Source of the DNA: Nostoc punctiforme PCC 73102
GTDB lineage: Bacteria; Cyanobacteriota; Cyanobacteriia; Cyanobacteriales; Nostocaceae
Assembly (NCBI RefSeq): GCF_000020025.1
Contig: NC_010628.1
Location: 4,260,001-4,292,000 of the forward strand
Direction of reading: 5' to 3'
DNA length: 32,000 nucleotides
The translations under genes and the position numbers were made by a program. The notes beneath the pieces are model-generated. The model ran no database searches. It was given only the letters and a program-made list of their open reading frames with translations, and was not told the origin of the DNA. Below are positions 1,044-31,344 of the stretch, piece by piece (the first letter of the stretch is position 1; each line of letters opens with the position of its first letter).

Positions 1044-1153
1044 ACGAGAAAAATGCGGAGTATTTGAGAAGATTTTGTCCAAGCATTGAACATTTATTTT
1101 AAATAGGAATTTACTGATGAATTCATTTAATAAAATAAAGTTATCCTAACTTC

Positions 1154-2000: not shown

Positions 2001-2882
2001 TCAAAACTTAAGGTTGCTTAAAGTAGTAAAGACTTGCCGTCGGTTATCGGTAAAGGCTCCACGACCGTGTAAAAACCTTGAATTATCCATCATTACCAGA
2101 TCGCCTGCTTTCCAAGGTATCTTTTCTGTTAGCTTATCGAAGATTCTCTCTATTTCATCAGCGACTTCATCAGAAGCTCTTGAACCGTCATCAAAAATTG
2201 CTTCTTCTGTCCTTTTTTGATATACCCAAAAGTGGTTTGCAAATGCATTTTGATGATTATATTTGTTGTTTACTACAGATGAACAAGTATATTCTACAGA
2301 AACAGTTTTATCATCATTAAACTGATAACTTACACCATCAACACTGTCTAACCTTTGCTTGATATCATCTATAGTATTAGCATTTGAACCTATTATTCCT
2401 TTCAATATATCAACCGGAACATTTTTATAAGAAAACTTTAGTTGCTTGGAAAGAAATAACTGTTTCGATTCTTGACTCAGTTCCTCCCACACTCGGATAC
2501 CATCCCAAAATAAAGTTTCGCCTTCTTGTTCGGCTGGTACAGTACAGCAAAACCAAATAACATCAGGTCGAAAGGGAAAACAAGAATTTTCGCAATGAGG
2601 AATAAGACCATCCATCCCGCCATCTACAAAATTGACATACTTGTCAGAATCAATGCTGACTTTTGTAAAATCTATAATATGCTTCCCACTAAATTGTTCT
2701 GAAAAATCTTTCATCTGCTTGGGAGTTACTCCAAAATCTCGAAATAGAATAACTCCAGATGACTTGAATATCTCCATAGTCTCTGCTACAGAGAGGTCAA
2801 GAATATTTTGACAATGACTATTATATAGTATCTTTCCTGTGCTAGTGCCTAGTGGCTCTATTTTACCGATCATATCATTCAT
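2001..2882 (-). CDS. TauD/TfdA-family Fe(II)/2-oxoglutarate dioxygenase
   Basis: 293-aa ORF. HxE facial-triad motif (IPHCEN), distal FLHGRGAF (His/Arg), and the GVILFRDFGV motif shared with the ORF at 17000..18031. Confidence 0.8.
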   Translation of the reverse strand: MNDMIGKIEPLGTSTGKILYNSHCQNILDLSVAETMEIFKSSGVILFRDFGVTPKQMKDFSEQFSGKHIIDFTKVSIDSDKYVNFVDGGMDGLIPHCENSCFPFRPDVIWFCCTVPAEQEGETLFWDGIRVWEELSQESKQLFLSKQLKFSYKNVPVDILKGIIGSNANTIDDIKQRLDSVDGVSYQFNDDKTVSVEYTCSSVVNNKYNHQNAFANHFWVYQKRTEEAIFDDGSRASDEVADEIERIFDKLTEKIPWKAGDLVMMDNSRFLHGRGAFTDNRRQVFTTLSNLKF

Positions 2883-8624: not shown

Positions 8625-11600
8625 CTATCGTTGATTTCTTTTTTCTCTTCGTCTTTGACCACGAGAAATACTTTGTTTCGCAGAAAGTATTTCATTCTGT
8701 TCAGGGCAGACAATATTAGTAAGGGAGTTTATGGTTGGTGCTTCGTAAATACTCTCTATAGGAATGTCAAGGTCTAATTTTTTGTTTAACAAAGAAATAG
8801 CTTGAAGGGCTGTTAGCGAATCACCTCCTAACTCAAAAAAATTGTCGTGGATGTTAACGTTGTCAAAACCAAAAAGTTCTTGCCAAATGTCAGCAATAGT
8901 TTTCTCAATCTTTTTACGGGAAGCGGCATAAGTATTTCCCAAAGCATTAGGTATTTGCTCAATCAGGTTTTCAAACAACTCATCAGCAGACTTTACATTT
9001 GAAGTAACCGAGAGCGATTCAGTAGCTAAGTTTAAAGATGAGCCAGTCAAAGTTTGATTGGCGCTCGTCTGTCCGCTATTTTTTGAAGTCTGCTCAGATG
9101 TAAAAAATCCCCCTGCTTGCATTTCAACTACGCTTTCTTTGACCGCAGAAATTACTTGTTCAACGTCTTTATCAGTGTGAGCTGTAGATAGATAAAGAGT
9201 GCGTCCTTCCCAGACATAAATCCCTTTTGCAAGCAAGTGATAGAAAAATAAATTACCAAGTTGAGTCTGGCAATTAAAACGGAAGAGAGAACCAAAATTA
9301 ACGACTCGAATTGGTACTTGCTTTTGTTCAAAGTAACTATTGAGAGTCTCGGCTAATTGGGTTGTCCGTTGATTTAACTCCTCCTGAAGTTTGGAACCAC
9401 TGTTCTTAATGTGATTGAGTGTAGCCCAGGCGACACCCATGATGAGAGGATGCTTGAAAAAAGTACCAGCGAAAAAAGTTGTTTTCACCTGGGGGTAAGA
9501 CTCATCTCCATAGTTCCACATACCTCCGTCTAATGCATCCATAAAAACAGCTTTGCCAGCCACTACCCCAATAGGGATACCAGCAGCAACAGCTTTACCA
9601 TAAGTTGTGATATCTGCTTGAATACCCCATAAAGCCTGAACGCCACCTGGGTGCATCCGAAAGCCAGTAACCACCTCATCGAAAATTAAAACAGTTCCAG
9701 TTTCTTGAGTTAATTGTCTGAGTTGAAATAGAAACTCTTTAGGCTGAAAATCTGGGCGACTGCTTTGTATCGGCTCAACTAAAATTGCTGCTAAGTTATG
9801 AGCATTGTCTTTAAGAATATTGAGAGATTCGGGAGTACCATACTCCAGCACCATCACATCCTCAGCTAAGGATGATGGAATACCTGAAGTCATCGGGACA
9901 GAACGTAGCGTTCCGTCGTTGGTTCTTACTCCTTTGACCAAAACTCCATCAGAACCACCGTGATAAGAACCAGCAAATAAAGCAATTTTTGAACGTCCTG
10001 TAACAGAACGTGCTATGCGTACAGCCGCCATCACTGCTTCTGTGCCATCGTTACAAAAAGCTGTCCGTTCCGCACCGGTTAACTCACAAATTAACTCAGC
10101 TAATTGACCTGCAAAACGCGATTGTGGGCCGTTTAGTATACCTTGCTTGCTTTGCTCTTGGATGGCTGCGATCGCAAAAGATGGCGAATGACCAAATAAA
10201 AGCGTACCAAACCCCATTGAAATGTCTACATATTCGTTGCCATCGACATCCCAGAGTCTAGCACCCTCTCCACGCTCTGCATGGATTGGATATATCATCT
10301 CCTTGATAAAGGGAAAGAACCCTGATACTGCCCTGCTATTGGCATGACAAGAACGATAAGCTTGGGTAAGCCTTTTAGATTCTTGGGTACGCTTGACAAA
10401 ATGTGCAATTAAAGAGTCTAGATGTCTCTGCTGGCGGGGACTCAACATCATCGATTCTTTCTCGATCTGTTGGGAAGCAGCTTTGGGTGTAGGATTAATT
10501 TTCCGGTCTTTGATTTGTTGCTCAGACTCTGCCTTAGTAAATGTAGACTGATTTCCACTAAACGCAGAGCCATTGGTTGAGGTTTGAGCAATTTGCCCAT
10601 CTTGATGAATAGCTCCCAATGAAGGCAAAACTTCTCTGGCTAAACTTCCCTGTGGTAATAAGTCTACCAGTTTAGACATAACCTGAAGATGCTGTGAAAT
10701 TATCTGTTCAATGGCTGTATTTGCTATAGGTTGGTTAACGATTTGCGTATCTGGAACTTTGATTGAGTTGGTTATGATATCTTCTGGTTGAGAAACAAGA
10801 ATTTCATTTTTGGGCGATAGATTGTCATCATTAGCTAAGATAGGTTCAATCCAGTATCTTTTTCGCTCAAAAGGATACGTTGGCAAGGGAATACGATGAC
10901 GTTCTTCATCGGCATAAAATTCTGACCAATCCACATTTATTCCCTCCAGCCAGAGTCTACCCAATGTATTTAGTAAAAACGCCACATCTGATTGTTGGTT
11001 CTGTGGATGTCTTAGTGAAGAAAGAATTACCTGCTGGGCCGCTTTTTGCTTGTTAGCTAAGGTACTTAATGTTCGCCCTGGGCCAACCTCTAAAAGAATT
11101 CGCTTTGGCTGTTGCAGTAATTCGGCGATCGCTTCGCTAAAACGTACTGTTTGGCGTAAATGCCTTGCCCAGTATTTCGGATCTGTTGCTTGTGCTGGGG
11201 TTATCCAAGTGCCGGTGACGTTAGATACAAAAGGAATTTTTGGAGAATTAAGGCTAATTTTGCTAACCTGTTCCTGGAATGGTAACAGAATCGAGTCCAT
11301 CATTGAGGAATGAAAAGCATGGGAAGTATGTAGACGATGACAGTCTACACCTTGGTCAATCAATCGTTTTTGTAAATCATCAACCGCTTCCTCCAATCCA
11401 GAAACTACGCACATATCTGGTGCATTGATTGCAGCCAAAGAGAGTTTTTTTCCTAGCATGGGTTGGATTTTTTTCTCTGGTAGTGAAACAGCCATCATTG
11501 TTCCCGATGGAAGCTGCTGCATCAGTTGTCCTCGGTTGGCTACGAGTATCAATGCTTCTTCTAAGGAGAACACACCAGCAATGCAGGCTGCGACATATTC

Positions 11601-13505
11601 TCCAATGCTGTGACCAATCATTGCATTCGGACGTACACCCCAAGCCATCCACAACTGAGCCAAGGCGTACTCAACTACAAATACTGCGCTTTGGGTAATA
11701 TGAGTTTGTTGTAGTTGCTGTGTTAACGCTTCCGTTTGCTGATGCGGATACAATAATGTCCGCAGGTCTAACTTCAGATAAGATTTGAGAAATTCACAAC
11801 AGTAGTCAACCTGTTTGCGGAAAATTATCTCAGTCTCGTATAATTCTCTACCCATATTCACATACTGGGTACCCTGTCCGGGGAACATAAATGCAATCTG
11901 TTGCCCCGATGGTTCGGTGAATTTGGTGAAAACCCTTTCTGAAACAGGCGTTTCTAAAACTGTGACTGCATCGTTAAGGTTTTGACAAACTAATATTCGG
12001 CGATCGCTAAAACCCCTTCGACCTACCCCCAGAGTATAAGCAATATCGGCTAAGTTGAGTTCAAGATGTTGTTTGAGGTGATTAGCCAAATTTGCTGTAG
12101 CTGTTTCTAATGCAGATTTCGTTTTCGCAGAAATAACTAACAAATGATATTTCCTCCCTTGTCTCCTCTGCCTCCCCTGCTCCCACACCGGGGCTTCTTC
12201 AAGAATCACATGGGCATTAGTCCCACCAATCCCAAAGGAACTAACCCCCGCACGGCGAGGAGTACCATTTGACTTCCATTCTGAAAGCTTGTCGTTAACA
12301 TAAAAGGGGCTGTTAGCAAAATCAATCTGGGGATTGGGTTGCTCAAAGTGTAAGCTGGGCGGTATCTGCTGGTGTTTGAGTGCGAGAACAGTCTTGATTA
12401 AACCAGCAACACCAGCCGCAGCATCTAAGTGTCCGATATTGGTTTTTACTGAAGCGATCGCACAAAAGTTTTTTTTATCTGTGGGGCGAAAAGCTTGTGT
12501 CAGCGAGGCGATTTCAATCGGATCGCCTAAAACTGTACCGGTGCCATGAGTCTCTACATAACTAATCGTCTCAGATTCAACTCTAGCCATTGCCAGTGCC
12601 TCGGCAATTACTTTTGCTTGCCCATCTACACTAGGAGCCGTAAAACCAACTTTTAAAGACCCATCATTATTAATAGCTGAACCTTTAATCACAGCATGAA
12701 TACAATCTCCATCAGCTAAAGCATCTTCTAACCGCTTGAGAACTACAATACCCACCCCGTTGCCGCTAATAATTCCTTGGGCTTTGGCATCAAAAGCCCG
12801 GCAGTGTCCATCGGGAGACATAATTCCCCCTTGTTGATAGCGATAACCAGTTTTGTGCGGCACTTGGATCGAAACACCACCTGCCAAAGCGATGTCACTT
12901 TCGCCATTTAGTAAGCTTTGGCAAGCTAAATGAACTGCAACTAATGAAGTCGAACAGGCGGTTTGGACGTTAAGGCTTGGCCCCTTAAGATTTAATTTAT
13001 ATGAGACATAAGTAGGCAGAAAATTTGGACTATTGCCAATGGAAATTCGGTAACTGCCGACTGATTCTATAATTTTTGGTTGTGTATAAAGGTTTGTCAA
13101 AAAGTAAGTATTTAAACTGGCACCAGCATAAACACCAATCCGACCTGCATATATTTCAGAATTGTAGCCAGCGCTTTCCAGAGCTTCCCAAGCACACTCC
13201 AGGAATAAACGGTGTTGTGGATCGGTGATTTGGGCTTCTTTCGCAGAAAAATCAAAAAATGAAGCATCAAATAACTCAATATCTTCTAATACAGATCCTG
13301 CTTTTACATACTGAGGTTGACTCAGCGTCGCTGGATCAATCCTAGAAGACAACAATTCTTCATCACTGAAAAAAGAAATTGACTCAACACCATCTCGGAG
13401 ATTTTGCCAAAACTGTTCAATATTTTTAGCTCTAGGAAAACGACCATTCATCCCAACGATCGCTATTTCATCGAGGCTATCAAATGCATTTGGTTGATTC
13501 ATCAT
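8625..13505 (-). CDS. type I PKS with embedded aminotransferase, KS-AT-AMT-CP
   Basis: 1626 aa. KS nt ~12192-13472 (TACSTSL, ETHGTGT, KTNIGHL). AT nt ~11001-11894 (GHSIGE, HAFH). Low-complexity linker. Class-III PLP aminotransferase (GSA-aminomutase-like) nt ~9120-10445 with TTYGKAVAAG (Lys1304). Carrier protein nt ~8706-8918 (ELGGDS, Ser1563). AGGAGG lies 5 nt before the ATG and the gap to the upstream stop is 9 nt. Confidence 0.95.
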   Translation of the reverse strand: MMNQPNAFDSLDEIAIVGMNGRFPRAKNIEQFWQNLRDGVESISFFSDEELLSSRIDPATLSQPQYVKAGSVLEDIELFDASFFDFSAKEAQITDPQHRLFLECAWEALESAGYNSEIYAGRIGVYAGASLNTYFLTNLYTQPKIIESVGSYRISIGNSPNFLPTYVSYKLNLKGPSLNVQTACSTSLVAVHLACQSLLNGESDIALAGGVSIQVPHKTGYRYQQGGIMSPDGHCRAFDAKAQGIISGNGVGIVVLKRLEDALADGDCIHAVIKGSAINNDGSLKVGFTAPSVDGQAKVIAEALAMARVESETISYVETHGTGTVLGDPIEIASLTQAFRPTDKKNFCAIASVKTNIGHLDAAAGVAGLIKTVLALKHQQIPPSLHFEQPNPQIDFANSPFYVNDKLSEWKSNGTPRRAGVSSFGIGGTNAHVILEEAPVWEQGRQRRQGRKYHLLVISAKTKSALETATANLANHLKQHLELNLADIAYTLGVGRRGFSDRRILVCQNLNDAVTVLETPVSERVFTKFTEPSGQQIAFMFPGQGTQYVNMGRELYETEIIFRKQVDYCCEFLKSYLKLDLRTLLYPHQQTEALTQQLQQTHITQSAVFVVEYALAQLWMAWGVRPNAMIGHSIGEYVAACIAGVFSLEEALILVANRGQLMQQLPSGTMMAVSLPEKKIQPMLGKKLSLAAINAPDMCVVSGLEEAVDDLQKRLIDQGVDCHRLHTSHAFHSSMMDSILLPFQEQVSKISLNSPKIPFVSNVTGTWITPAQATDPKYWARHLRQTVRFSEAIAELLQQPKRILLEVGPGRTLSTLANKQKAAQQVILSSLRHPQNQQSDVAFLLNTLGRLWLEGINVDWSEFYADEERHRIPLPTYPFERKRYWIEPILANDDNLSPKNEILVSQPEDIITNSIKVPDTQIVNQPIANTAIEQIISQHLQVMSKLVDLLPQGSLAREVLPSLGAIHQDGQIAQTSTNGSAFSGNQSTFTKAESEQQIKDRKINPTPKAASQQIEKESMMLSPRQQRHLDSLIAHFVKRTQESKRLTQAYRSCHANSRAVSGFFPFIKEMIYPIHAERGEGARLWDVDGNEYVDISMGFGTLLFGHSPSFAIAAIQEQSKQGILNGPQSRFAGQLAELICELTGAERTAFCNDGTEAVMAAVRIARSVTGRSKIALFAGSYHGGSDGVLVKGVRTNDGTLRSVPMTSGIPSSLAEDVMVLEYGTPESLNILKDNAHNLAAILVEPIQSSRPDFQPKEFLFQLRQLTQETGTVLIFDEVVTGFRMHPGGVQALWGIQADITTYGKAVAAGIPIGVVAGKAVFMDALDGGMWNYGDESYPQVKTTFFAGTFFKHPLIMGVAWATLNHIKNSGSKLQEELNQRTTQLAETLNSYFEQKQVPIRVVNFGSLFRFNCQTQLGNLFFYHLLAKGIYVWEGRTLYLSTAHTDKDVEQVISAVKESVVEMQAGGFFTSEQTSKNSGQTSANQTLTGSSLNLATESLSVTSNVKSADELFENLIEQIPNALGNTYAASRKKIEKTIADIWQELFGFDNVNIHDNFFELGGDSLTALQAISLLNKKLDLDIPIESIYEAPTINSLTNIVCPEQNEILSAKQSISRGQRRREKRNQR
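9120..10445 (-). other. PLP-dependent aminotransferase (AMT) domain within the KS-AT-AMT-CP protein
   Basis: The region from LWDVDGNEYVDISMGFG to YGKAVAAGIPIG to VWEGRTLYLSTAHT is co-linear with the AMT at 29241-30575. A hand-aligned stretch gave roughly 85% nt identity. Confidence 0.85.
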
Positions 13506-13514
13506 AGCCTCCTC

Positions 13515-16500
13515 CTACTGGCTTTTTTCTTGATGTTTTTGTCGGAGTTGTCTTTGTTGTTTCTTTGATTCTCTCCGAGTATTAACTAAATCATGGCTTG
13601 GTTGCAAATCAGGTTTTTCTGCTAATTGTTGACTTAAATGTTTCGCCAAGGCACTAATAGTTGGATATTGAAACATTTCAACAATTGATATCTCTTTATT
13701 AAGAGTTTGATACAGTTTGCTGTGTACCTGAACCATCAGTAATGAATGACCGCCAAGATCGAAGAAATTGTGATGAATACCTACTTTCTTGATGTGGAGT
13801 ACTTCTTGCCAAATTATAGCAATAGTTTGCTCAAGTTCAGTCTCAGGAGCAACGAGATTTTCTTCCAGATTCAGCTGTGGCTGATCGGGTAGCACTCGGC
13901 GATCTACTTTGCCGTTAGGCAACAGTGGCATTTCCTTGAGCAGAACAAAGGCTGACGGGATCATATATTCAGGCAGACGATCTAACAAATAGCGACGAAG
14001 TTCACTAATGAGAGAAACTGGCTGTTGGTTAGCAACCAAATATGCCACTAGGCGCATATCCTGAAGTTCCTGCTTTTGGGCTATAACTACAACCTCCCGC
14101 ACCTCTGGATGTTGATCCAATACCGCCTCAATCTCCCCCAGTTCAATACGATAACCCCGGATTTTAACCTGCTGATCGAGCCTTCCGAGAAATTCAATGT
14201 TGCGATCGCTCAGATAACGAGCTAAATCTCCCGTTTTGTAAAGGCGCATTCCTGGGCGATCGCTAAATGGGTTAGGAATGAACTTTTCGCTAGTTAAGGC
14301 GGCTTGATTGAGATAGCCTCTAGCTAAACTATCACCACTGATATAAACTTCACCGATAACTCCAATAGGAACAGGTTGTAAATGAGAGTTAAGTAGATAA
14401 ATCTGCGTATTAGCAATGGGTTGACCAATCGATACTTGCTCTTTGATTTGTTGAGAGCGACAATGATATACACTGCTCCAAACCGTACCTTCTGTTGGCC
14501 CATACTCATTAAATAAAGATGGTTTTGATGGCAATTGGTGATGACGTTGTACTAACTCTGCTGGACAAGATTCACCAGCAACAATGACGGTGCGAAGTGA
14601 TGTTAATTGTTCGGGTTTGGACTCCTGCAATAAAATAGTATACAGAGATGGAAGGCTTAATAAATGGGAGACATGATTTTGGACGATTAACTCTAATAGT
14701 TTTGGGATGTCCAATTGCAACCCTTCTTGGGGAAGACAAAGAATTCCTCCAGAACAAAGAGTCCAAAAAATACCCGCCACAGAACTATCGAAAGCAAAGG
14801 AAGAAAGTAATAAGAAGCTACTAACAGGTTCTTGATAGTAAGTAATCCGAGCAGTTGTAGAGTTTACTAAATGGCGATGTGCAATCTGCACTCCTTTAGG
14901 TTTACCTGTAGAACCAGAGGTATAAATGACATAAGCTAAGTTTTCGCTATGCGTTTTAACCGGGGAATTTTCTTGACTCTCCTGAGCAATAATTGCCCAA
15001 GCTGTATCCAAGCAAATAGTTTGGGCACTATGGGCTGGTAAACCCGAAAGCAGTCGTTGCTGAGTCAATAATACTGGCGTTTTGGTATCTTCTAATATGA
15101 AAGCTAAACGCTCTGATGGATAATTTGGATCGAGTGGAATATAAGCTCCACCAGCTTTAAGAATGCCCAAAATCCCAACAATCATTTCGAGCGAACGCTC
15201 GACACAAATTCCCACCAGTACCTCTTTTTCAACTCCTAACCTTTGGAGGTAGTGAGCCATTTGATTGGCACGAGTATTTAATTCATGGTAAGTAACTTTC
15301 TGTCCAGAAAATGTAACGGCAATATTGTTTGGTGTTTGCTCTGCTTGTTCTTCAAATAAATGGTGAATACACTTGTCTTGGGGATAATCAGCCTGTGTTT
15401 GGTTGAACTCAAATAGAATTTGATTTCGGGTGCGATCGCTTAAAATTTCTAGTTCACTGATTGTAGCTTCTGGATGAGCCGTGGCACTTTTTAATAACTT
15501 ATGAAATTGCTCTGCTAAATCAGCAACATCATGTTCATAAAATAAATTAGAGTCATAATGAAATTCTGCACTTAAAAAATCATCCTTGCGTCTACAAGAG
15601 AATTTGATATTGAAACGCTCTGTGCAGCTATAAAGCTTGTGAATGCAAAACGATAGATTACCTGCACAATGCTTTGTATTTTCTTCAGCAAAATCAAAGC
15701 CCACAGGTACAAAAGGCAAAATATCTGATTTAGTATCTACTCCTAATATTTGTTCCCAACTAAAACATTCTTGCCATTTAGAGATAGATTCTACAGATTC
15801 ATGAATTTGCTGCAAAATTTGACTGAATCGAAAGTTATCTTCTAAATGACAATGAAGTGGTAAATATTTGGCAAAAAGTCCTAATGCTCCTTTGAGTTCT
15901 TCATATTTTCTGCCATCAACTCCCGTACCAACGATCATCTCTGATTGTCCGCTCAGTCTCTGGAGCAGAACCAGCCAGCAAGTTAGATAAAATATAGAAG
16001 CAGAAGTATTATATTTCTCGGCTAATATTTCAATATTAGATATCAATTCCGGGGCAATAATTGTATTTATTAATTTCGGTTGAAATTTGTGATTTTTAGA
16101 TATCTGTTTTTCATAAGGCAACTTGGGATGTGTAACACCAGATAAATCTTGCTGTTGCCAATATTTTCTTCCTATTTGCGTTTCTTCTGCTTCCAGTATT
16201 TGATTTTGCCATTCCGAAAAATCTGCATATTGTAGTGGAGCTTCATATAATTCTTCATCTAAATTTCCTAAGTAAGAAATAGTCAGTTGTTGTAATAAAG
16301 AATTGAGACTGACACTATCTGCACAGAGAGCAGGCAAACTGATAAATAATAAATATTTTTCTGGCGAAATCTTTACTAGGGATGTATGTAAAATTAAACC
16401 TTGTTCAAAGTCGAAATTTTGTTGGTTAGATTTTTGAAAAATTGCTTCAATCTCTGCCTCCTGTTCTTGAGTATTTAAATTACTAAGATCGTGATTTTCC

Positions 16501-16754
16501 AAAACTATTTTGCTATCTGTAATTACCTGCACTGGAATCGTCATTTCAGGTAGACAAATAAAACTGGTGCGAAGAATCTCATGGCGATTGACAACATCTT
16601 GCAATGCTAATTCTAAATTATTGATGTTAACATTACCTTCAATCAGAATTGTACAATCGCTACGATAAGCCCAACTTTGATCGATTTGTTTTAGTAACCA
16701 TAGATGCTCTTGTTGAGGTGAAAGTCTAAACCCCTCCATATTTTCTACTTGCAT
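13515..16754 (-). CDS. NRPS module: His-less C-like domain, A, PCP
   Basis: 1079 aa. The N-terminal C-fold domain (nt ~15435-16733) has SLPALCADSVS where HHxxxDG is expected. A domain nt ~13890-15371 (LAYVIYTSGSTGKPKG, NEYGPTE, YKTGDLARY, GRLDQQVKIRGYRIELGEIE, NGKVDRR). PCP nt ~13635-13841 (DLGGHS, Ser1004). Confidence 0.95.
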   Translation of the reverse strand: MQVENMEGFRLSPQQEHLWLLKQIDQSWAYRSDCTILIEGNVNINNLELALQDVVNRHEILRTSFICLPEMTIPVQVITDSKIVLENHDLSNLNTQEQEAEIEAIFQKSNQQNFDFEQGLILHTSLVKISPEKYLLFISLPALCADSVSLNSLLQQLTISYLGNLDEELYEAPLQYADFSEWQNQILEAEETQIGRKYWQQQDLSGVTHPKLPYEKQISKNHKFQPKLINTIIAPELISNIEILAEKYNTSASIFYLTCWLVLLQRLSGQSEMIVGTGVDGRKYEELKGALGLFAKYLPLHCHLEDNFRFSQILQQIHESVESISKWQECFSWEQILGVDTKSDILPFVPVGFDFAEENTKHCAGNLSFCIHKLYSCTERFNIKFSCRRKDDFLSAEFHYDSNLFYEHDVADLAEQFHKLLKSATAHPEATISELEILSDRTRNQILFEFNQTQADYPQDKCIHHLFEEQAEQTPNNIAVTFSGQKVTYHELNTRANQMAHYLQRLGVEKEVLVGICVERSLEMIVGILGILKAGGAYIPLDPNYPSERLAFILEDTKTPVLLTQQRLLSGLPAHSAQTICLDTAWAIIAQESQENSPVKTHSENLAYVIYTSGSTGKPKGVQIAHRHLVNSTTARITYYQEPVSSFLLLSSFAFDSSVAGIFWTLCSGGILCLPQEGLQLDIPKLLELIVQNHVSHLLSLPSLYTILLQESKPEQLTSLRTVIVAGESCPAELVQRHHQLPSKPSLFNEYGPTEGTVWSSVYHCRSQQIKEQVSIGQPIANTQIYLLNSHLQPVPIGVIGEVYISGDSLARGYLNQAALTSEKFIPNPFSDRPGMRLYKTGDLARYLSDRNIEFLGRLDQQVKIRGYRIELGEIEAVLDQHPEVREVVVIAQKQELQDMRLVAYLVANQQPVSLISELRRYLLDRLPEYMIPSAFVLLKEMPLLPNGKVDRRVLPDQPQLNLEENLVAPETELEQTIAIIWQEVLHIKKVGIHHNFFDLGGHSLLMVQVHSKLYQTLNKEISIVEMFQYPTISALAKHLSQQLAEKPDLQPSHDLVNTRRESKKQQRQLRQKHQEKSQ
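15435..16733 (-). other. condensation-fold domain lacking the catalytic histidines (possible interface/scaffold domain)
   Basis: Alignment to the two canonical C domains in the window puts I-S-L-P-A-L-C-A-D-S-V-S (nt 16308-16340) opposite T-M-H-H-I-I-A-D-G-W-A. Both His are replaced (Pro, Ala) and Gly becomes Ser. The C1 motif is also atypical (LSPQQEHLWLL). Confidence 0.75.
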
Positions 16755-16789
16755 ATTTATACCTCAGTGTTATAAGACTTTAGATTTTA

Positions 16790-16857
16790 TAGGACTTACG
16801 CAAAAACCCTCTTAAACTCTCATTCCTCAGTGACCTCAGTGTCCTCTGTGGTTCGTT
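16790..16857 (+). repeat. diverged member of the same repeat family (copy B1)
   Basis: tataggacttacgcaaaaaccctcttaaactctcattcctcagtgacctcagtgtcctctgtggttcgtt. It shares the tatag start and the ctcNgNgNcNtctgNNgttcgNtt end with copies A and C. Confidence 0.55.
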
Positions 16858-16934
16858 TTCCGTAATAATGCTTAATGGTGTATGAGGCAATACGGTTCAG
16901 TTAAGGCTAAAACTCTTTAACAAAGTCAATTTTT

Positions 16935-16990
16935 TAACGTAGACGCGGAGCGGCTTGCCGCAGGCTACCGCAGAGGAAACAGAGAGAAGA
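16935..16990 (-). repeat. repeat copy B2 (inverted; matches the GC-rich half of copy C)
   Basis: The reverse complement cttctctctgtttcctctgcggtagcctgcggcaagccgctccgcgtctacgtta aligns with copy C 31250-31312, with a few mismatches and one short indel. Confidence 0.75.
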
Positions 16991-16999
16991 AAAAAATGC

Positions 17000-18031
17000 T
17001 TAACCCAAGGGTATTGGTGTATGAGCTTCAGCCATTCCGACTAAAATTTTTCTGGGAGGGACAAATGGCTGACGGGCATGGATTGATAACATATTGTCCA
17101 GCATCAATACATGTCCTTTTTCCCAAGAAAAAGTGACCATTTCCTGTTGATAAGCTGCTCGTAGTTCAGCTAAGACTGATGGCTCAATTGCAGAACCATC
17201 CCCATAATATGTGTTAGTTGGTAGGTCTTCTTCTGGCAAATTTGTCAATAATGAATCGCGGATTGTTGATTCTAATGTGGAGACATGGAAAAAAGTTGCG
17301 TGATTGAACCAGACCATTTCACCTGTTTGAGGATGTTTGAGAACAACTGGCCCAACTTGACGAGTTCTTAAGCGATTATCTGCTTTCCATTCAACCTCAA
17401 TTCCATTGATTTTGCAGTACTCTTCTACCTTAGTTTTGTCTGTTGTTTGAAATACAGTTTGCCAAGGAAGACCAAATCCATCACCAAAGTTACGCATATA
17501 CATGACTTTCTTTTGAATGAAGCGATCGCGTATATCTGGATGAATCCGCTCAAACACTTTCCGACAACTACCAATTGGAGTTTCTCCTCCCTGCGCTGCT
17601 GGACTCATACAAAAAAAGAAGATTTTCAACGGAAAGGTAGGAGAGTAAGCGTGTTCATTGTGAGGAAAGATACTTTGCTCGGCAGGATAGTCTGTTGAAG
17701 TATAAATTCTCCCACCTACTTGAGTTCGTGGAGATGCCCGATAACGATACTCCATCGCCTCTCCACAAATCGCAGCGATGATTTGCTCAAATTCTTCTAT
17801 TGACTTGACTTTAAAATCCCGAAACAGTATTGCTCCATATTTTAATAATTCGGCTTTCAAAAATTCCCGATTATTCTTTGCCCAGTTTTGCAGATCCACT
17901 CCCTTCACATTGGGCTTAATCACCAAAGGAAAATTATTTCCTGGCTGGAGAAACTCAGTTTTTATTAAGTCTTCTGGAGATATATTGACAGCTTTACGCT
18001 TCACAGAACCTAGAGATTCAATTTTTGTCAT
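17000..18031 (-). CDS. SyrP/TauD-like Fe(II)/2-oxoglutarate dioxygenase (probable hydroxylase of a carrier-bound amino acid)
   Basis: 343 aa. GAILFRDF motif, HxE triad (FPHNEHAY, His124/Glu126), distal LSIHARQPF. The ATG at 18029-18031 overlaps the stop of the upstream C-domain gene by 14 nt. Confidence 0.85.
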   Translation of the reverse strand: MTKIESLGSVKRKAVNISPEDLIKTEFLQPGNNFPLVIKPNVKGVDLQNWAKNNREFLKAELLKYGAILFRDFKVKSIEEFEQIIAAICGEAMEYRYRASPRTQVGGRIYTSTDYPAEQSIFPHNEHAYSPTFPLKIFFFCMSPAAQGGETPIGSCRKVFERIHPDIRDRFIQKKVMYMRNFGDGFGLPWQTVFQTTDKTKVEEYCKINGIEVEWKADNRLRTRQVGPVVLKHPQTGEMVWFNHATFFHVSTLESTIRDSLLTNLPEEDLPTNTYYGDGSAIEPSVLAELRAAYQQEMVTFSWEKGHVLMLDNMLSIHARQPFVPPRKILVGMAEAHTPIPLG

Positions 18032-19595
18032 GATTTGTATTTCCTGATGTTGATTGTCTACTATTAGCTCTGCGCTTAACGTTCATTAATTTCTGCTGGA
18101 TAGTATTTTGATAAACTTGTTCTTTAGCTAGATGCTGTTGCTTGTCTACTTGATTGAGAACTGCTTTTAACTCGCTCAATTTAGCTTCTGGGTGTGTCGC
18201 AACCTCGGCTAGAAGTGTTGCAAAATTTTTCGATAACCGCACAATACTGTCCCGTTCAAATAAGTCAGTGCTATATTCCCAGATACCAAATAGTCCTTGC
18301 TCTGTCTCGTTTAACTCCAACAGCAAGTCAAACTGCACTGTCTTGTTTTCGATTTTCAATGAACTGATAGTTAAACCTGGAAGTTCTAAAGATGGAGTTT
18401 GGGTATTTTCCAAAACAAGTTTGACTTGAAATAGCGGTGTGCGGTTCAATTCCCGTTTTGGATTTAAAGCATCTACCAGTTTGTCGAAGGGCAAATCTTG
18501 GTGAGCATAAGCTTCTAGAGTCATTTCGCGGACTCGTTCTAATAATTCTAGAAAAGTAGGATTTTTAGATAAATTTGTACGTAATACTAACTGATTAGCA
18601 AAGAAGCCGATCAATGCTTTAGTCTCTGCTTGATTGCGATTAGCAATATCGGTACCAACAACAATATCTTCTCGATCGGTGTACCAGTTTAGCAAAGCCC
18701 CAAATGCTGCCAGCAGTACCATAAATAATGTGATGCCTTGCCTCTGATTCAGAGTCTTGAGCCGATCGCATAAGGTTTTGGGTAATACTAGGGCTTCCCT
18801 TGCTCCAGAGAAAGTCTGGGTAGTTGATCGGGGGAAATCGCTAGGGAGTTCCACAACAGGTATACTGCCTAGTTGCTGCTGCCAGTAAGCAAGTTGAGTT
18901 TCTAATTGCCCCTGTAACCACTGTTGTTGCCAAACTGCAAAATCTACATACTGAATGGATAGTTCCGAAAGCGGTGATGGTTTACCAACAGAGAAAGCTT
19001 TGTACAAATCTGCAATCTCACGAATCAGCACACCTATAGCCCAGCCATCTGCGATAATGTGATGCATCGTCAATAATAATGCATATTCTGCCGCCGCCAG
19101 CTGCAATAGAGTAGCTCGCAACAAAGGGCCTTGGGCTAGGTCAAATGGCTGTTGGGCTTCTTCACTCGCCAATCGCAAAACTTCAGCCTCTCTCTGATTT
19201 TGAGGGAGTTTTTGTAAATCTACCACTGGTAATGTGAAGCTCAAACTCGAAGCAATAACTTGAAGGGGTTGTCCATCAACCACTGTGAATGTAGTTCTTA
19301 AAACTTCGTGACGTTTCACAACCTCTTTGAAGCTTTGCTCCAGCGCCGCCACATTTAGCCATCCTCCAAGACGCATGGGTACAGAGATGTTGTAGGCGCT
19401 ATTCCCAGGTTGTAACTGGTCGATGAACCACAACCTCTGCTGGGCAGAGGATAGAGGAAATGAGTTTAATTCTCGACTCTGAGGAACTATTGGCGATCGC
19501 AATAAGATTTCCCCTTGTTTATTATTAAGCCGTTGTACCAGAAGTTTTAGTTTTTCTGGTGAAAGTTCAGCAATCCGTTGCGAGAGGTCACTCAT
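18018..19595 (-). CDS. stand-alone NRPS condensation domain protein
   Basis: 525 aa. N-terminal LSPEKLKLLVQRL docking-like helix, C1 LSSAQQRLWFIDQL, intact C3 MHHIIADGWAIG (nt 19044-19064). No A domain or carrier domain follows. Confidence 0.9.
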   Translation of the reverse strand: MSDLSQRIAELSPEKLKLLVQRLNNKQGEILLRSPIVPQSRELNSFPLSSAQQRLWFIDQLQPGNSAYNISVPMRLGGWLNVAALEQSFKEVVKRHEVLRTTFTVVDGQPLQVIASSLSFTLPVVDLQKLPQNQREAEVLRLASEEAQQPFDLAQGPLLRATLLQLAAAEYALLLTMHHIIADGWAIGVLIREIADLYKAFSVGKPSPLSELSIQYVDFAVWQQQWLQGQLETQLAYWQQQLGSIPVVELPSDFPRSTTQTFSGAREALVLPKTLCDRLKTLNQRQGITLFMVLLAAFGALLNWYTDREDIVVGTDIANRNQAETKALIGFFANQLVLRTNLSKNPTFLELLERVREMTLEAYAHQDLPFDKLVDALNPKRELNRTPLFQVKLVLENTQTPSLELPGLTISSLKIENKTVQFDLLLELNETEQGLFGIWEYSTDLFERDSIVRLSKNFATLLAEVATHPEAKLSELKAVLNQVDKQQHLAKEQVYQNTIQQKLMNVKRRANSRQSTSGNTNHDKN

Positions 19596-19949
19596 TTTAA
19601 TTCCCTGCCTCTACCTTTGATGAGATACAAGACGGTCTTCTGACAAGCTTATCATTCTATCAGGAAATTTTCTCAACAAAATTATATCTAAAAAGTCCAT
19701 TTCAACGTCTATCCGTTTAGGTTTGTAAAAAATCGATAGCAGAGTTAAGTAAGTCGGTGAGAATAATTCAAATTATGTTAACTAATGTAAAAAATCTTGA
19801 AATTAGTTTCTGGTGGGCGGTTCCCGCCCTGTTTCTGAGATCCTACATGAACAAACTAGGGCTTTAGCCCTCACCACTAACCTTTAATTATTTACGCAGT
19901 TATACATATTTAACAAGTATTTATTAATTCAGAGAAACCAAAACACTAC

Positions 19950-22900
19950 TTAATTTTGCGAAGTAATTATTGCATATACCTCATTTTCTGATAGTTGTTC
20001 AATATCTGCTAGGGCTTTAGCTAATTCCTCTGAGTTTGTTTGCTCGGCCATTTTTTGGACAATAACTTCAGCCAAATCAGCTACAGTCGGGCCGTTAAAG
20101 AAGCCTTTGTAAGAAAGTTCTATTTGGAAAACTTTGCACAGTTGAGAAACTAATTGAGTAGCAAATAAAGAGTCTCCTCCTAACTCAAAGAAGTTGTCAT
20201 GAATGCCTACTTTTTCAATACCTAAAATTTGTTGCCAAATGTCGGCAAGGTTTCGCTCGATTTCGTTATTAGGAGCAACATAAGTATTCGCCAAATTAGG
20301 GCGGGGGTGAGTTGATTTATATTGGCTCAACTGGGCTAATTTTTCCTCCAAGGACTCAACAGATTCCTTTGGCTTAATCAAGCTGAGAAAATCTTGTGTT
20401 GAGATAATAACTTGAGGAACTGTACTACTGCACAAAATACGTTTAAATGCCTCTATACCCTCAAAAGCGGTCATTCCTGCTATCAACTCTTTTCCTGTGA
20501 TTTGCTGATGCCGTGCTTCGACAGGAACCGCCATTCCTACGTTGTTCCATCTATCCCAGTTAATAGACTTAATGAATTTCCATGTTCCATATTTAGCAGC
20601 ACTGTATTGAGCAAATGAGTCAAGGAAGGCATTTGCAGCAGTATAATCTACCATTCCAGATGTGCCAGCAAAGGAACTTAGGGATGAACACAGTACAAAG
20701 AAATCTAGCTTGCTTTCTTGGAATAAAGTTTCAAGTACTCGTGTTCCTTGTACTTTTGGTGCTATGGCACTTGCTACAGTTTCTTTTGTGGCGAGTTGCA
20801 TCATTCCTCCGCCGTAAACTGCGGCTGCATGAATTACTCCATGAATCTCACCAAATCGCTGATTGGCTTTTTTAAGCACTGCTGACATCTGTTCAAGGTT
20901 GGTAACATCTGTGCTGACTACCATTACCTCTGCACCTAATGTTTTCATCGCCTGCAATTTTTGGATCTTTTGGCTGATGCTGTCGTGCCGATCGTGAGTA
21001 GATAACCACTCAGACCACTTATCTTGGTCAGGAAAGGCTGAACGACCTAGTAAGATCAGTTTTGCTTGTACGGTTTGGGCTAGATATTCTGCCAGCAGTA
21101 GACCAACACCTCCTAATCCGCCAGTGATTAAATATACACCTTGTTCTCGGAGGAGATTTCCCGCAACGGTTCCATGTAATTGAACAGGTTCAAAATCTTG
21201 TACCCAGCGATTACGTCCACGATAAGCAATAACTTGGTCAGATGTATAGGTTGTAAGTTCTGCTATTAGCGCTTTGATGAGTTGTTCTTCTCCACTTTCT
21301 GATTCAGGAATTACAACATCAATACTGCGACAGTTTATATTTGCATACTCTAATGGCATAACCTTGCAAGCTCCAAGAACTAATGCCTTTTCTGGACACA
21401 GCATTTCTGAACCTGTAACTTCCTGCAAATTGTTGGAGACAATGGCAATTTCTACAGCATCTGTTTGATTATTTTCTGCGTAGACGCGCAGCGCCTTGTC
21501 GTCAGACATCGCCTGTCCCAAAAACAATAAGCTCGACCAGCCTAAAGCTTCAATTGCTGAGTTGGTGTAACTATTTGATGTCACACTCCACAGATGAACA
21601 ATCCTTCTTGGGATTTTACCCAAAGTCCGAAGTCCTTTGAGTAAGGTGTTGTAGTCATCCTCTTTTTCAGGGTTAATCGTATATGTGTATTGAGAATATT
21701 CGCTACTCTGTTGAAATTGCTCTCCAACTTTAACGGTAATAACATCTTGGTTCTCAAGCACTAGTTGTTTTACCAACCTTTCACCCAAGCCAAACTCATC
21801 CACAAACACTAACCAGCATCCTGGTTGAGTTATCCCAAATCCGGGTTGAAAAGGCTGTGGCGGCATGGTGCGTTTCCAAGAAGGGATGTAAAACCAGTCA
21901 GCAATATCTGGCTTTTTACTTAATAAGTCTTGGTATTGCTCTTTAGGGGCTTTTTGCTTTGTGACTGTAAATGCTGTAGGTGCTGAGTCAGTTACCGATA
22001 CAGCAGTCTGAGCCACTAAAATTTGTTCGCCGAAAGCTTCAGTTTCAGAGACAGCTGCTACCTCAACAAACCCATGAGAACGTAGTGCATCCTGCCATTG
22101 CTCCTGTGACAAAAATGGATTACCACGGTTGCGTCCTTCATCCTCTAAGGGATTCATCAACAGACCATCAGTGATATCAAAGTTTAATTGTGGTTGAGTT
22201 ATCTCCCACAATAGCAGGAATCCTCCAGGAGCCAATAGCGATCGCACATGCTCTAGGGTTTTTGTTATGTTCTGGGTTACGTGCAACACATTAACAGCTA
22301 CCACCACATCAAAGCTGTGGCTGTTGAACCCTTGTGCAGTTGGCGGTTTTTCGATATCTAAAAAATGATATTCAACAAATGGATAAGCGCTAAACTGCTG
22401 TTTAGCTTGATTCAAAAACAAACCACCGACATCTGTAAAAGTGTAGTTAGTTCGTTCCGATGGCAACACAGGTAGCAATTCTGCCGTGGCAATACCCTGT
22501 CCACCACCAATTTCTAGAATTCTCAGGTTAACGTCAGATGGTAATGACTTTACCACCTGTTCCATACCTGTTCGTATAATCCCTTGTAAATGGGTATTCA
22601 GAGGCAATTCTGAATTTGCTTCTGGTTTTGGTTTGTGGTCTTTGACCGCAAAGAACAACTCTAAGGGTTCTTTTTCACCAATGAGTACATTTGGTAGATT
22701 CTCGCCACATTCCCGGACTATATTTAGCTCATGAAGTGTATCTACGTATCTGATTTTGACTTCTTCTACCAGAGTATTAATAGAGTCGATGGAACAGGGA
22801 ACAAGATTTGTAAATAAATCCTTTTCTTGTTTTAAGTGGCCTTGCTCTACTAGTACATCTAAAAAGCGATACAACAATTGTCGATAGCGAGGAATAATCT

Positions 22901-31210: not shown

Positions 31211-31312
31211 TATAGCAGTTCTAAATCATTCGTGAAACCTCTCGTTATTCTTCTCTCTGTGTACTCTGCGTCTCTGCGGTAGCCTGCGGCAAGGCGCTCT
31301 GCGTCTACGTTA
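31211..31312 (+). repeat. MITE-like small dispersed repeat, longest copy (copy C)
   Basis: tatagcagttctaaatcattcgtgaaacctctcgttattcttctctctgtgtactctgcgtctctgcggtagcctgcggcaaggcgctctgcgtctacgtta. It is related to 8549-8622 (inverted), 16790-16857 (direct) and 16935-16990 (inverted). Confidence 0.75.
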
Positions 31313-31344
31313 AAAAATAATTTCTATAAATAAGATAATATTGC

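What the first reader, a model, noticed from the sequence alone, without database searches (positions are those of the whole stretch)
13515..19595. Stand-alone active C domain, overlapping TauD/SyrP-like hydroxylase, and a His-less C-like domain fused to A-PCP
The three consecutive genes encode the following. (i) A free-standing C domain with intact MHHIIADG but no A or PCP. (ii) A SyrP-like Fe/2OG dioxygenase whose ATG overlaps the C-domain stop by 14 nt, implying translational coupling. (iii) A module whose own N-terminal C-fold domain reads SLPALCADSVS in place of HHxxxDG. Established knowledge: SyrP-type enzymes hydroxylate PCP-tethered amino acids. In siderophore NRPSs, stand-alone TauD-type beta-hydroxylases co-occur with catalytically dead C-like 'interface' domains thought to recruit them. 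Inference: the dead domain here may dock the hydroxylase while the separate C domain makes the amide bond in trans. I have not seen this split arrangement described in a cyanobacterial PKS/NRPS hybrid.
Basis: partly seen in the sequence, partly recalled or inferred. Interest (0 to 1): 0.8.

Follow-up and report, generated by a model that had tools for sequence, protein, structure and literature searches.

The report
Split histidine β-hydroxylation cassette in NRPS/PKS
Three neighbouring genes in a Nostoc-type PKS/NRPS cluster form an already described kind of module, in which an active condensation enzyme, an iron/2-oxoglutarate hydroxylase and a catalytically dead "interface" domain act together, here probably to install β-hydroxy-histidine; it is a new member of that kind, not a new arrangement.

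Summary
On the minus strand lie three genes:
- a 525-aa free-standing C domain (MHHIIADG intact);
- a 343-aa TauD-family dioxygenase whose ATG overlaps the C stop by 14 nt;
- a C*-A-PCP protein whose C-fold domain reads LPALCAD in place of HHxxxDG.

C* is an interface (I) domain. It groups with the N-terminal domains of cyanochelin CcsI/CcsL (47/50 bootstrap), away from all His-bearing C domains, and shares their LPxL(C/Y)xD motif.

The cassette C(HHxxxDG)–TauD–I-A-PCP recurs in about 75 of 88 TauD copies in 80 related loci. These come from cyanobacteria, Acidobacteriota and one Chloroflexia MAG.

The partner A domain code is DSASIAEVWK, 9/10 identical to a published His/β-OH-His code. The TauD sequences cluster by partner code.

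The split is not new:
- Cyanochelin C has C, TauD and I-A-PCP as three ORFs.
- Glidomide pairs a stand-alone His hydroxylase with an I domain.
- In myxoglucamide the I domain was dispensable, and hydroxylation was coupled to condensation.

What is specific here:
- a PKS ACP is the donor;
- the ACP and the free C appear to carry a matching docking pair;
- the product is unknown, and the His-type cassette is common in Nostocales.

Verdict: new member of a known kind; interest about 0.3.

The parts
19953..20249 (-). ACP (aa 1861-1923) and 36-aa C-terminal tail (…EELAKALADIEQLSENEVYAIITSQN) of the upstream KS-AT-cMT-KR-ACP protein. This is the donor carrier for the free C. The tail is a putative docking element.
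   Evidence: Pfam PP-binding at aa 1861-1923. The tail is conserved in all loci with a free-standing C. It is absent where ACP/PCP and C are fused.
18018..19595 (-). Free-standing condensation protein, 525 aa. It has an N-terminal head MSDLSQRIAELSPEKLKLL… (putative docking partner, 19464-19595). The C domain spans 18147-19463, with the HHIIADG motif at 19044-19064. A C-terminal tail lies at 18021-18146.
   Evidence: Pfam Condensation E 2.2e-116, no other domain. Best solved relatives are the elongation C domains Txo2, Txo1 and TycC (345-296 bits). It belongs to a subclade made almost only of C domains that sit directly upstream of a TauD.
17000..18031 (-). Stand-alone Fe(II)/2-oxoglutarate dioxygenase of the TauD/TfdA family, 343 aa. 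Predicted β-hydroxylase of PCP-bound histidine. Its start overlaps the C gene by 14 nt (18018-18031). Iron ligands are H124 and E126 (17654-17662) and H318 (17078-17080).
   Evidence: Pfam TauD E 4.7e-44. 45-48% identical to the cyanochelin Asp β-hydroxylases CcsK and CcsH. It lies within the group of TauDs whose partner A domain has the His-like code. It is the most conserved of the four cassette parts compared (C, TauD, I, A) (median 85%).
16755..16999 (-). 245-nt spacer between the TauD gene and the I-A-PCP gene. It contains a copy of a short dispersed repeat.
   Evidence: In one search, spacer positions 6-71 (window about 16929-16994) match window 31245-31318 at 82%. Two further parts of the spacer match other Nostoc loci. 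Close relatives have only 8-20 nt here, or a methyltransferase gene.
15405..16754 (-). Interface (I) domain. It has the C fold, with LPALCAD (16317-16337) in place of HHxxxDG. Predicted to be non-catalytic.
   Evidence: Pfam Condensation aa 10-447, E 7.8e-67. The motif is conserved family-wide as LPxL(C/Y)xD and is shared with CcsI and CcsL. 34-41% identity and 247-325 bits to CcsI/CcsL N-termini, against 83-143 bits for the window's active C domains against the same regions. Monophyletic clade, 47/50 bootstrap.
13908..15356 (-). Adenylation domain with specificity code DSASIAEVWK (predicted L-histidine).
   Evidence: The code was extracted by alignment. It is 9/10 identical to DSALIAEVWK, which PMC12283262 lists as a His code that accepts the β-OH modification. 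The identical code occurs in 33 related modules.
13635..13826 (-). PCP (Ser1004 in GGHS). It carries His / β-OH-His and is the acceptor for the free C.
   Evidence: Pfam PP-binding aa 977-1040.
8625..13505 (-). Downstream KS-AT-aminotransferase-ACP protein. It would take the β-OH-His-terminated chain from the PCP.
   Evidence: Pfam architecture. The same gene follows the cassette in L001, L003, L004, L007 and others.

Best explanation
The three genes are one functional unit of a known type: a β-hydroxylation/condensation cassette built around an NRPS interface domain.

Proposed steps:
1. The A domain of the 1079-aa protein loads L-histidine onto its own PCP.
2. The stand-alone TauD-family enzyme hydroxylates the tethered histidine at Cβ.
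3. The free-standing C protein is the only domain here with an intact HHxxxDG. It joins the polyketide-peptide chain on the ACP of the upstream KS-AT-cMT-KR-ACP protein to the amine of β-OH-His-S-PCP.
4. The chain then passes to the KS-AT-aminotransferase-ACP protein.

The His-less N-terminal domain does no chemistry. It serves as a scaffold or modulator for the hydroxylase/C/PCP encounter. How essential it is remains open.

Because C is a separate polypeptide, it is probably recruited by a docking pair: the tail on the PKS and the head on C.

Shown here:
- the domain identities;
- the loss of the catalytic motif;
- clade membership with the cyanochelin I domains;
- conservation of the cassette;
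- the link between TauD clade and partner A code.

Inferred:
- histidine as substrate;
- β-regiochemistry;
- action on the PCP-bound substrate;
- the docking function;
- the order of hydroxylation and condensation.
For: Domain calls and motifs.

I-domain identity:
- C* matches the cyanochelin B CcsI/CcsL N-terminal domains (34-41% identity, 247-325 bits) far better than the window's active C domains match the same regions (83-143 bits).
- 51 non-redundant LPxL(C/Y)xD domains form one clade, 47/50 NJ bootstrap. The clade excludes 117 His-bearing C, E and Cy domains.

Cassette conservation:
- Every upstream C keeps HH, and all but four (L031, L044, L054, L080) the full HHxxxDG.
- About 75 of the 88 TauD copies have an I-A partner. 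The upstream C is free, at the end of an NRPS or PKS, or fused to TauD.
- Each junction therefore offers exactly one active C for one condensation.

Substrate:
- Code DSASIAEVWK against the His/β-OH-His code DSALIAEVWK.
- TauD sequences group by partner code: His-, Asn-, Asp- and Gln/Glu-like.

Hydroxylase competence: H124/E126/H318 triad.

Docking: the head and tail are conserved only in free-C loci.

Biochemical precedent, from PMC13638107:
- The fused dioxygenase domain hydroxylates PCP-bound Glu at Cβ.
- The HHxxxDG-bearing C performs the condensation.
- The two steps are coupled.
- The same paper cites glidomide GlmF as hydroxylating PCP-bound His in an I-domain-dependent way.
Against: - No experiment exists on this system.
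- The His assignment rests on a 9/10 code match to a code taken from one survey paper.
- I could not compare the TauD or the I domain with the original proteobacterial reference sets or with the antiSMASH profiles. Reitz 2019 and Galica 2021 are not held. No proteobacterial His-type reference was found on plasmids.
- The role of the I domain is contradictory in the two systems tested.
- The I domain is the least conserved of the four cassette parts compared (C, TauD, I, A) (median 66% against 85% for TauD). That fits a loose scaffold. It also fits a domain of little importance.
- The trees are NJ on p-distances from loci found through the TauD itself, so the sampling is biased toward this cassette.
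Confidence: 0.8

Rival explanations
1. The His-less domain is still a condensation catalyst that uses other residues. The free-standing C would then do something else, such as a second acylation, chain release or proofreading.
For: - C* keeps the full C fold and several core motifs: RHEILRTSF and YADFSEW.
- Its Asp of the xxxD position is conserved.
- Some active C-superfamily members lack a canonical motif (general knowledge).
Against: - In about 45 related cases the HH-bearing C is the last condensation-type domain of the upstream synthetase (at its C-terminus, or followed only by a fused TauD). It has no acceptor module of its own other than the I-A-PCP that follows.
- If I were active there would be two catalysts for one bond.
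- The I clade is separate and fast-evolving.
- In myxoglucamide the HH-bearing C alone sufficed, and removing I did not stop condensation.
Confidence: 0.04
2. The dioxygenase acts on the free amino acid before loading, or on a different substrate or position. Its position next to the I domain would then be only genomic linkage.
For: - Free-amino-acid β-hydroxylases of the Fe/2OG class exist, including one acting on free His (AEP14369; review PMC11611013).
- A second TauD-family gene lies in the cluster at 2001-2882.
Against: - The TauD is fused in-frame to the C domain in 21 related copies (17 with an Asn-like partner code). That places it physically on the assembly line.
- TauD clades track the code of the adjacent A domain.
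- Tested relatives of this cassette act on PCP-bound substrates.
Confidence: 0.07
3. The cassette is as described, but the amino acid is not histidine.
For: - The code differs at one of ten positions from the published His code.
- Code-based prediction is fallible.
Against: - The DSxxIAEVWK pattern is distinctive.
- It is kept in 41 partner modules across cyanobacteria, a Chloroflexia MAG and a Thermoanaerobaculia (Acidobacteriota) MAG.
- The other cassette types carry clearly different Asp-, Asn- and Gln/Glu-like codes.
Confidence: 0.12

Closest known systems
Cyanochelin biosynthesis. Cyanochelin B: Leptolyngbya sp. NIES-3755 plasmid 2, AP017310.1, with CcsFGH/CcsI and CcsJ/CcsK/CcsL. Cyanochelin C: ccsH_1/2, ccsH_2/2, ccsI.
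   Same: - It is a cyanobacterial hybrid PKS/NRPS.
- It has the same order: active C, then TauD-type hydroxylase (fused or stand-alone), then a protein starting with a His-less C-like domain followed by A-PCP.
- The I domains share the LPxLCAD motif and are 34-41% identical to the window's.
- In cyanochelin C the C and the TauD are separate ORFs, as here.
   Different: - The substrate is Asp (code DLTIIGHVGK), not the His-like code.
- The TauD is only 45-48% identical.
- The donor carrier is an NRPS PCP rather than a PKS ACP.
- Siderophore transporter genes lie next to the cyanochelin cluster. None is seen in this window.
Glidomide pathway of Schlegelella brevitalea: stand-alone Fe/2OG dioxygenase GlmF plus interface domain (Chen et al. 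2022, as cited in PMC13638107)
   Same: A stand-alone dioxygenase β-hydroxylates PCP-bound histidine in a module with an I domain. This is the same predicted chemistry and the same stand-alone state of the hydroxylase.
   Different: - It is a Burkholderiales NRPS.
- No PKS donor or free-standing C is known to me from that system.
Myxoglucamide MxgA (…ACP-C-Ox) / MxgB (I-A-PCP…), PMC13638107
   Same: - An ACP-bound acyl donor.
- An HHxxxDG C of the LCL type.
- A dioxygenase followed by I-A-PCP on the next protein.
- A hybrid NRPS/PKS.
This is the direct biochemical model for how C, hydroxylase and PCP cooperate.
   Different: - C and Ox are fused to the ACP protein.
- The substrate is Glu.
- The hydroxyl is cryptic.
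- The I domain is dispensable in vitro.
Siderophore interface-associated β-hydroxylases IβH_Asp and IβH_His, and the interface domain (Reitz et al. 2019 PNAS; antiSMASH 8 profiles)
   Same: The concept and the naming. A non-canonical C-superfamily member is proposed to position the hydroxylase and the NRPS-bound amino acid. The His-specific subtype exists.
   Different: - Those families were defined on siderophore clusters. Cyanobacterial hydroxylases needed separate profiles (CyanoBH_Asp1 and CyanoBH_Asp2).
- No cyanobacterial His subtype is mentioned in the papers I could read.
SyrP (syringomycin) type, T-domain-associated hydroxylases
   Same: The same Pfam family (TauD/TfdA). They act on carrier-bound amino acids (own knowledge).
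   Different: As I recall it, SyrP works with an ordinary C-A-T module without an interface domain. Here an I domain is present, so 'SyrP-like' is only a family-level label.

Membership tests
NRPS interface (I) domain | Condensation-superfamily fold | tested here: met
   Pfam PF00668 covers aa 10-447 against profile positions 6-456 of 456, E 7.8e-67. Solved C domains match at E 1e-32 to 1e-20.
NRPS interface (I) domain | Catalytic HHxxxDG motif absent | tested here: met
   The position reads SLPALCADSVS. The whole clade has LPxL(C/Y)xD with no His.
NRPS interface (I) domain | Position: N-terminal to the A domain of the hydroxylated residue, next to a TauD-type hydroxylase, with an intact C upstream | tested here: met
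   Gene order C, TauD, I-A-PCP in the window and in about 75 of 88 related TauD copies.
NRPS interface (I) domain | Clusters with recognised I domains, apart from active C subtypes | tested here: met
   Monophyletic with the CcsI and CcsL N-terminal domains of cyanochelin B, 47/50 bootstrap. The cyanochelin C preprint uses a 'β-OH-Asp-specific interface domain' as a genome-mining marker for cyanochelin-like clusters. Limits: the tree is NJ, and the Reitz reference set and the antiSMASH 'interface' profile were not available.
NRPS interface (I) domain | Needed for, or modulates, β-hydroxylation | not testable with these tools
   Published results conflict: indispensable in glidomide, dispensable in myxoglucamide.
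Interface-associated histidyl β-hydroxylase (IβH_His / GlmF-like) | TauD/TfdA Fe(II)/2OG fold with HxD/E…H ligands | tested here: met
   Pfam TauD E 4.7e-44. H124, E126 and H318 align with the corresponding region of At3g21360, PDB 1Y0Z.
Interface-associated histidyl β-hydroxylase (IβH_His / GlmF-like) | Stand-alone gene paired with an I-A(His)-T module | tested here: met
   It is a separate ORF. The partner code DSASIAEVWK is 9/10 identical to the His/β-OH-His code. All 41 His-coupled relatives are stand-alone; none is fused.
Interface-associated histidyl β-hydroxylase (IβH_His / GlmF-like) | Falls in the IBH_His clade or passes its profile | not testable with these tools
   No reference sequence or profile was reachable. 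Reitz 2019 is not held. No NCBIfam model matched. The plasmid searches gave no proteobacterial His-type example.
Interface-associated histidyl β-hydroxylase (IβH_His / GlmF-like) | Hydroxylates PCP-bound L-His at Cβ | not testable with these tools
   Needs an enzyme assay.
SyrP-type (T-domain-associated) β-hydroxylase | Partner module is an ordinary C-A-T without an interface domain | tested here: not met
   The partner starts with an I domain. The defining feature itself comes from my own knowledge of SyrP/SyrE.
Elongation-type (LCL-like) condensation domain, free-standing | Intact HHxxxDG and closest to elongation C domains | tested here: met
   MHHIIADG. The best solved matches are Txo2, Txo1 and TycC C domains at 345-296 bits. 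In the tree it lies among His-bearing C domains. A formal LCL versus DCL assignment was not made.

The most novel reading that the evidence does not exclude
This is the most taken-apart natural form of the hydroxylation/condensation checkpoint. Four separate polypeptides are involved: a PKS ending in ACP, the C protein, the TauD enzyme and I-A-PCP. They would be held together by dedicated docking elements.

The cassette would place β-hydroxy-histidine between two PKS modules. The pathway is common in Nostocales, including lichen-symbiont Nostoc. Its product, possibly a new imidazole-based metal binder, has not been described.
Probability: 0.35. Interest if true: 0.5.

Novelty: new member of a known kind. 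Interest (0 to 1): 0.3.

Why it matters
Annotation: the His-less domain should be called an interface domain. The module should be read as 'β-OH-His', with the free C as its condensation catalyst.

Enzymology: published tests disagree on whether the I domain is needed. This lineage offers C, hydroxylase and I-A-PCP as separate natural proteins. Close relatives have the same parts fused in different ways. That makes a convenient comparative set for reconstitution.

Natural products: I found no β-OH-His-containing cyanobacterial PKS/NRPS product in the searchable literature. The His-type cassette occurs in about 40 species-level genomes. The products are therefore worth looking for. This is a lead, not a discovery.

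Tried and rejected
- Reading the founding papers: Reitz et al. 2019 (by DOI and by PMC6778253) and Galica et al. 2021 (PMC8357277) are not held. I relied on later papers that describe them.
- NCBIfam: no model matches the TauD. C and C* match only generic NRPS models, far below their cut-offs.
- Solved structures: no interface domain is solved. C* matches ordinary C domains only weakly.
- Looking for a proteobacterial His-type reference:
  - The top 120 of 7457 homologues of the TauD are all at least 59% identical. Every one that carries an organism name is cyanobacterial.
  - tblastn of the TauD and of I-A against 72,556 plasmids gave Asp- or other-type cassettes but no clear His-type one outside cyanobacteria.
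- Supplement of the A-code survey: it does not contain the His code table as text.
- Dmaq/anachelin idea for the relatives with R domain, methyltransferase and aminotransferase: rejected. Their A code is the His-like one. Dmaq synthesis starts with the FbnL/FbnM heme peroxidase, not a TauD.
- Promoter/terminator scan of 16600-20100: fewer promoter-like sites than in shuffles, so nothing usable.
- Structure prediction was not run. The tool returns no coordinates and no complexes. A monomer model would only restate 'C fold'.


Full report
**What is in the window**

All long ORFs are on the minus strand. Pfam gives the following assembly line in the direction of transcription.
- The 3' end of a KS-AT gene that runs off the window and ends at 31414.
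- 31205-25896: ACP-aminotransferase-C-A-PCP. The A code is DFWQIGMVHK, which I read as Thr-like from memory of the usual Thr code.
- 25829-19950: KS-AT-cMT-KR-ACP.
- 19595-18018: a 525-aa protein that is only a C domain.
- 18031-17000: a 343-aa TauD/TfdA dioxygenase.
- 16754-13515: C*-A-PCP.
- 13505-8625: KS-AT-aminotransferase-ACP.
- 8529-3100: KS-AT-KR-ACP-TE.
- Then a second TauD-family gene, a methyltransferase and an aldo-keto reductase.

**Checking the observation**

- The free C has MHHIIADG and no A or PCP.
- The TauD ATG lies 14 nt inside the C gene (…AATCATGACAAAAATTGA).
- The N-terminal domain of the third protein is a full-length Condensation match (E 7.8e-67). It reads SLPALCADSVS where HHxxxDG should be.
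- The TauD has its iron ligands H124, E126 and H318.
- A 245-nt spacer, not an overlap, separates the TauD gene from C*-A-PCP.

**What the His-less domain is**

I fetched 80 loci that encode relatives of the TauD. They come from one genome per species across bacteria. I annotated them by BLAST against the window's domains.

In nearly all of them the TauD is followed by a protein that starts with a C*-like domain and an A domain. It is preceded by a C domain.

I aligned 77 downstream and 76 upstream domains.
- All upstream domains keep the HH pair, and all but four the full HHxxxDG.
- All but two aligned downstream domains (L058, L078) have LPxL(C/Y)xD instead (a few carry substitutions at the Leu or Pro); one fragment did not align.
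- The same motif, LPALCADT and LPSLCADA, opens CcsI and CcsL of the cyanochelin B cluster. I read that cluster from plasmid AP017310.1.
- The authors of the cyanochelin papers treat these modules as the β-OH-Asp modules. Each is preceded by a fused or a stand-alone hydroxylase. They use a 'β-OH-Asp-specific interface domain' as a marker.

C* is 34-41% identical to the CcsI/CcsL N-termini, at 247-325 bits. The window's active C domains score 83-143 bits against the same regions.

In an NJ tree of 168 non-redundant C-type domains, the 51 motif-less domains form one clade. They include the window's C*, CcsI and CcsL. Support is 47/50 bootstraps. The clade is sister to the His-bearing elongation C domains and distant from E and Cy domains.

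That condition was clustering with active subtypes.

**The cassette is a unit, and the split is ordinary**

I examined 88 TauD copies. About 75 have an I-A partner. The upstream C takes one of four forms.
- Free-standing: 29 copies.
- At the C-terminus of an NRPS: 24 copies.
- At the C-terminus of a PKS: 3 copies.
- Fused in-frame to the TauD: 21 copies.

Most C domains that sit before a TauD form their own subclade.

The layout 'active C on one protein, I-A-PCP on the next' is therefore the rule. A separate C protein is one of its common states.

This is already in the literature for cyanobacteria. [quoted passage not shown]

The claim of an undescribed arrangement in a cyanobacterial PKS/NRPS hybrid therefore fails.

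**Which amino acid**

The ten specificity positions of the A domain read DSASIAEVWK. A 2025 survey of A-domain codes gives DSALIAEVWK as a His code that 'can accept the β-OH modification'. That is a 9/10 match.

The window's exact code occurs in 33 related modules. Near variants occur in 8 more.

More distant TauDs pair with other codes. I read these classes from memory of the usual codes.
- DLTIIGEVGK: Asn-like.
- DLTI(I/V)GHVGK: Asp, as in cyanochelin.
- DAWxxGLIDK: Gln/Glu-like.

The TauD tree follows the partner code.
- The His-coupled enzymes form a near-clade: 41 members, plus 2 with a truncated partner and 2 basal Gln-like.
- All His-coupled enzymes are stand-alone.
- The Asn-coupled enzymes are all fused.

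I conclude that the cassette installs β-hydroxy-histidine. This is an inference.

**How it most likely works**

Direct biochemistry exists for a sister system. In myxoglucamide the proteins are MxgA (…ACP-C-Ox) and MxgB (I-A-PCP…).
- The dioxygenase domain β-hydroxylates PCP-bound Glu.
- The HHxxxDG C performs the acyl transfer.
- Neither step completes without the other.
- Leaving out the I domain did not stop either step.

Transferred to this window, the model has four steps.
1. His is loaded on the PCP.
2. It is hydroxylated in trans.
3. It is acylated by the free C, using the ACP-bound chain of the preceding PKS.
4. The product is handed to the next KS.

The I domain acts as a scaffold or modulator of uncertain necessity.

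Two observations of mine fit a non-catalytic I domain.
- It is the least conserved of the four cassette parts compared: C, TauD, I and A. Median identity to the window is 66%. The values for A, C and TauD are 70%, 75% and 85%.
- In L020, L023 and L024 the I domain is 64-65% identical while the A domain in the same protein is 90-95% identical.

**What is particular to this lineage**

The donor is a PKS ACP. The C is a protein of its own.

In every free-C locus where the two ends could be read:
- the C protein starts with a conserved head (MSDLSQRIAxLSPEKLKLLxQRL…);
- the upstream PKS ends with a conserved tail (…EELAxALADIEQLSExE…).

Where carrier and C are fused, a plain linker of about 30 residues joins them. 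The free-C loci from Acidobacteriota show similar elements. I read this as a docking pair that arose with the gene fission. It is an inference.

Tight linkage of C and TauD is conserved. The 14-nt overlap itself is limited to the nearest relatives. Translational coupling is plausible but unproven.

**Known or new**

The kind of system is known.
- It has been named: interface domain, interface-associated hydroxylases.
- Profiles for it are in antiSMASH 8.
- It has been tested biochemically twice.

This window adds a cyanobacterial His-type member inside a PKS-rich hybrid.

I found no cyanobacterial β-OH-His product in the searchable library. The metallophore survey mentions only Asp-type cyanobacterial hydroxylase clades. 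The product is probably undescribed, but absence from this library is weak evidence. No transporter genes are in the window, so a metallophore role is only a guess.

I could not test whether the TauD belongs to the published IBH_His clade.

**Verdict**

This is a new member of a known kind. Interest is about 0.3.

Noticed in passing
window 16755-16999 and 31245-31318; also L053 11026-11078, L008 17769-17818, L020 20490-20541: The unusually long TauD/I-A-PCP spacer carries a short dispersed repeat of about 70 nt (…CTCTGCGGTAGCCTGCGGCAAGCCGCTCCGCGTCTACG…). A second copy lies in the intergenic region upstream of the ACP-AMT-C-A-PCP gene, and further copies lie in other Nostoc loci. Close relatives have only 8-20 nt at this junction, or a methyltransferase gene (L003, L012, L020).
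   Followed up: partly
window 2001-2882, 1154-1918, 72-1082 (minus strand): A second, distinct TauD/TfdA-family dioxygenase (293 aa) lies downstream of the TE. It has weak similarity to γ-butyrobetaine and trimethyllysine dioxygenases. It is followed by a SAM methyltransferase and an aldo-keto reductase. These are probably tailoring genes. Their substrates are unknown.
   Followed up: no
window 25896-31205 (aa 265-626) and 8625-13505 (aa 1073-1433): Two class-III aminotransferase domains are embedded in the assembly line (ACP-AMT-C-A-PCP and KS-AT-AMT-ACP). The product should therefore carry two β-amino groups derived from β-keto intermediates, one on either side of the β-OH-His unit.
   Followed up: no
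L006, L008-L011, L013, L016, L017, L021, L022, L025 and others (e.g. L006 11040-17717): A sister cluster type keeps a C, TauD (85-89% identical) and I-A(His-like)-PCP. It ends there with a thioester reductase domain (NAD_binding_4). A methyltransferase and a stand-alone class-III aminotransferase follow. That suggests reductive release of β-OH-His, then amination and methylation. The window type instead has PKS-AMT and PKS-KR-TE.
   Followed up: partly
L020, L023, L024 (I-A-PCP genes at about 11025-15330): There is an apparent recombination boundary between the I and A domains. The I domain is 64-65% identical to the window. The A, PCP and downstream KS-AT-AMT parts are 89-96% identical. The upstream PKS and C are 63-83% identical.
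   Followed up: no
window 18021-18146 (C tail) and 17960-18031 (TauD head): The C tail (…QQKLMNVKRRANS…) and the TauD head (…GSVKRKAVNISPEDLI…) both contain a VKR(R/K)A segment. In C-TauD fusions this segment occurs once in the linker, for example L073 …LLSVKPKAVKLSERNIV…. It looks like a trace of how the two genes were separated or joined.
   Followed up: partly
window 31414-32000 (minus strand): The ORF listed as 174 aa is the C-terminal end of a KS-AT protein whose reading frame continues past the window edge. In L021 the matching protein is 976 aa, KS-AT only, and its ACP sits at the start of the next protein. The first PKS module is thus split between AT and ACP.
   Followed up: partly
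L045 6596-9250 and 9288-17114; L035-L037; L068: Several loci carry two or more hydroxylation cassettes in a row with different partner codes. Examples are SSRIVAMGIK or Asp-like followed by His-like. In L045, TauD domains are fused at the ends of two successive proteins.
   Followed up: no
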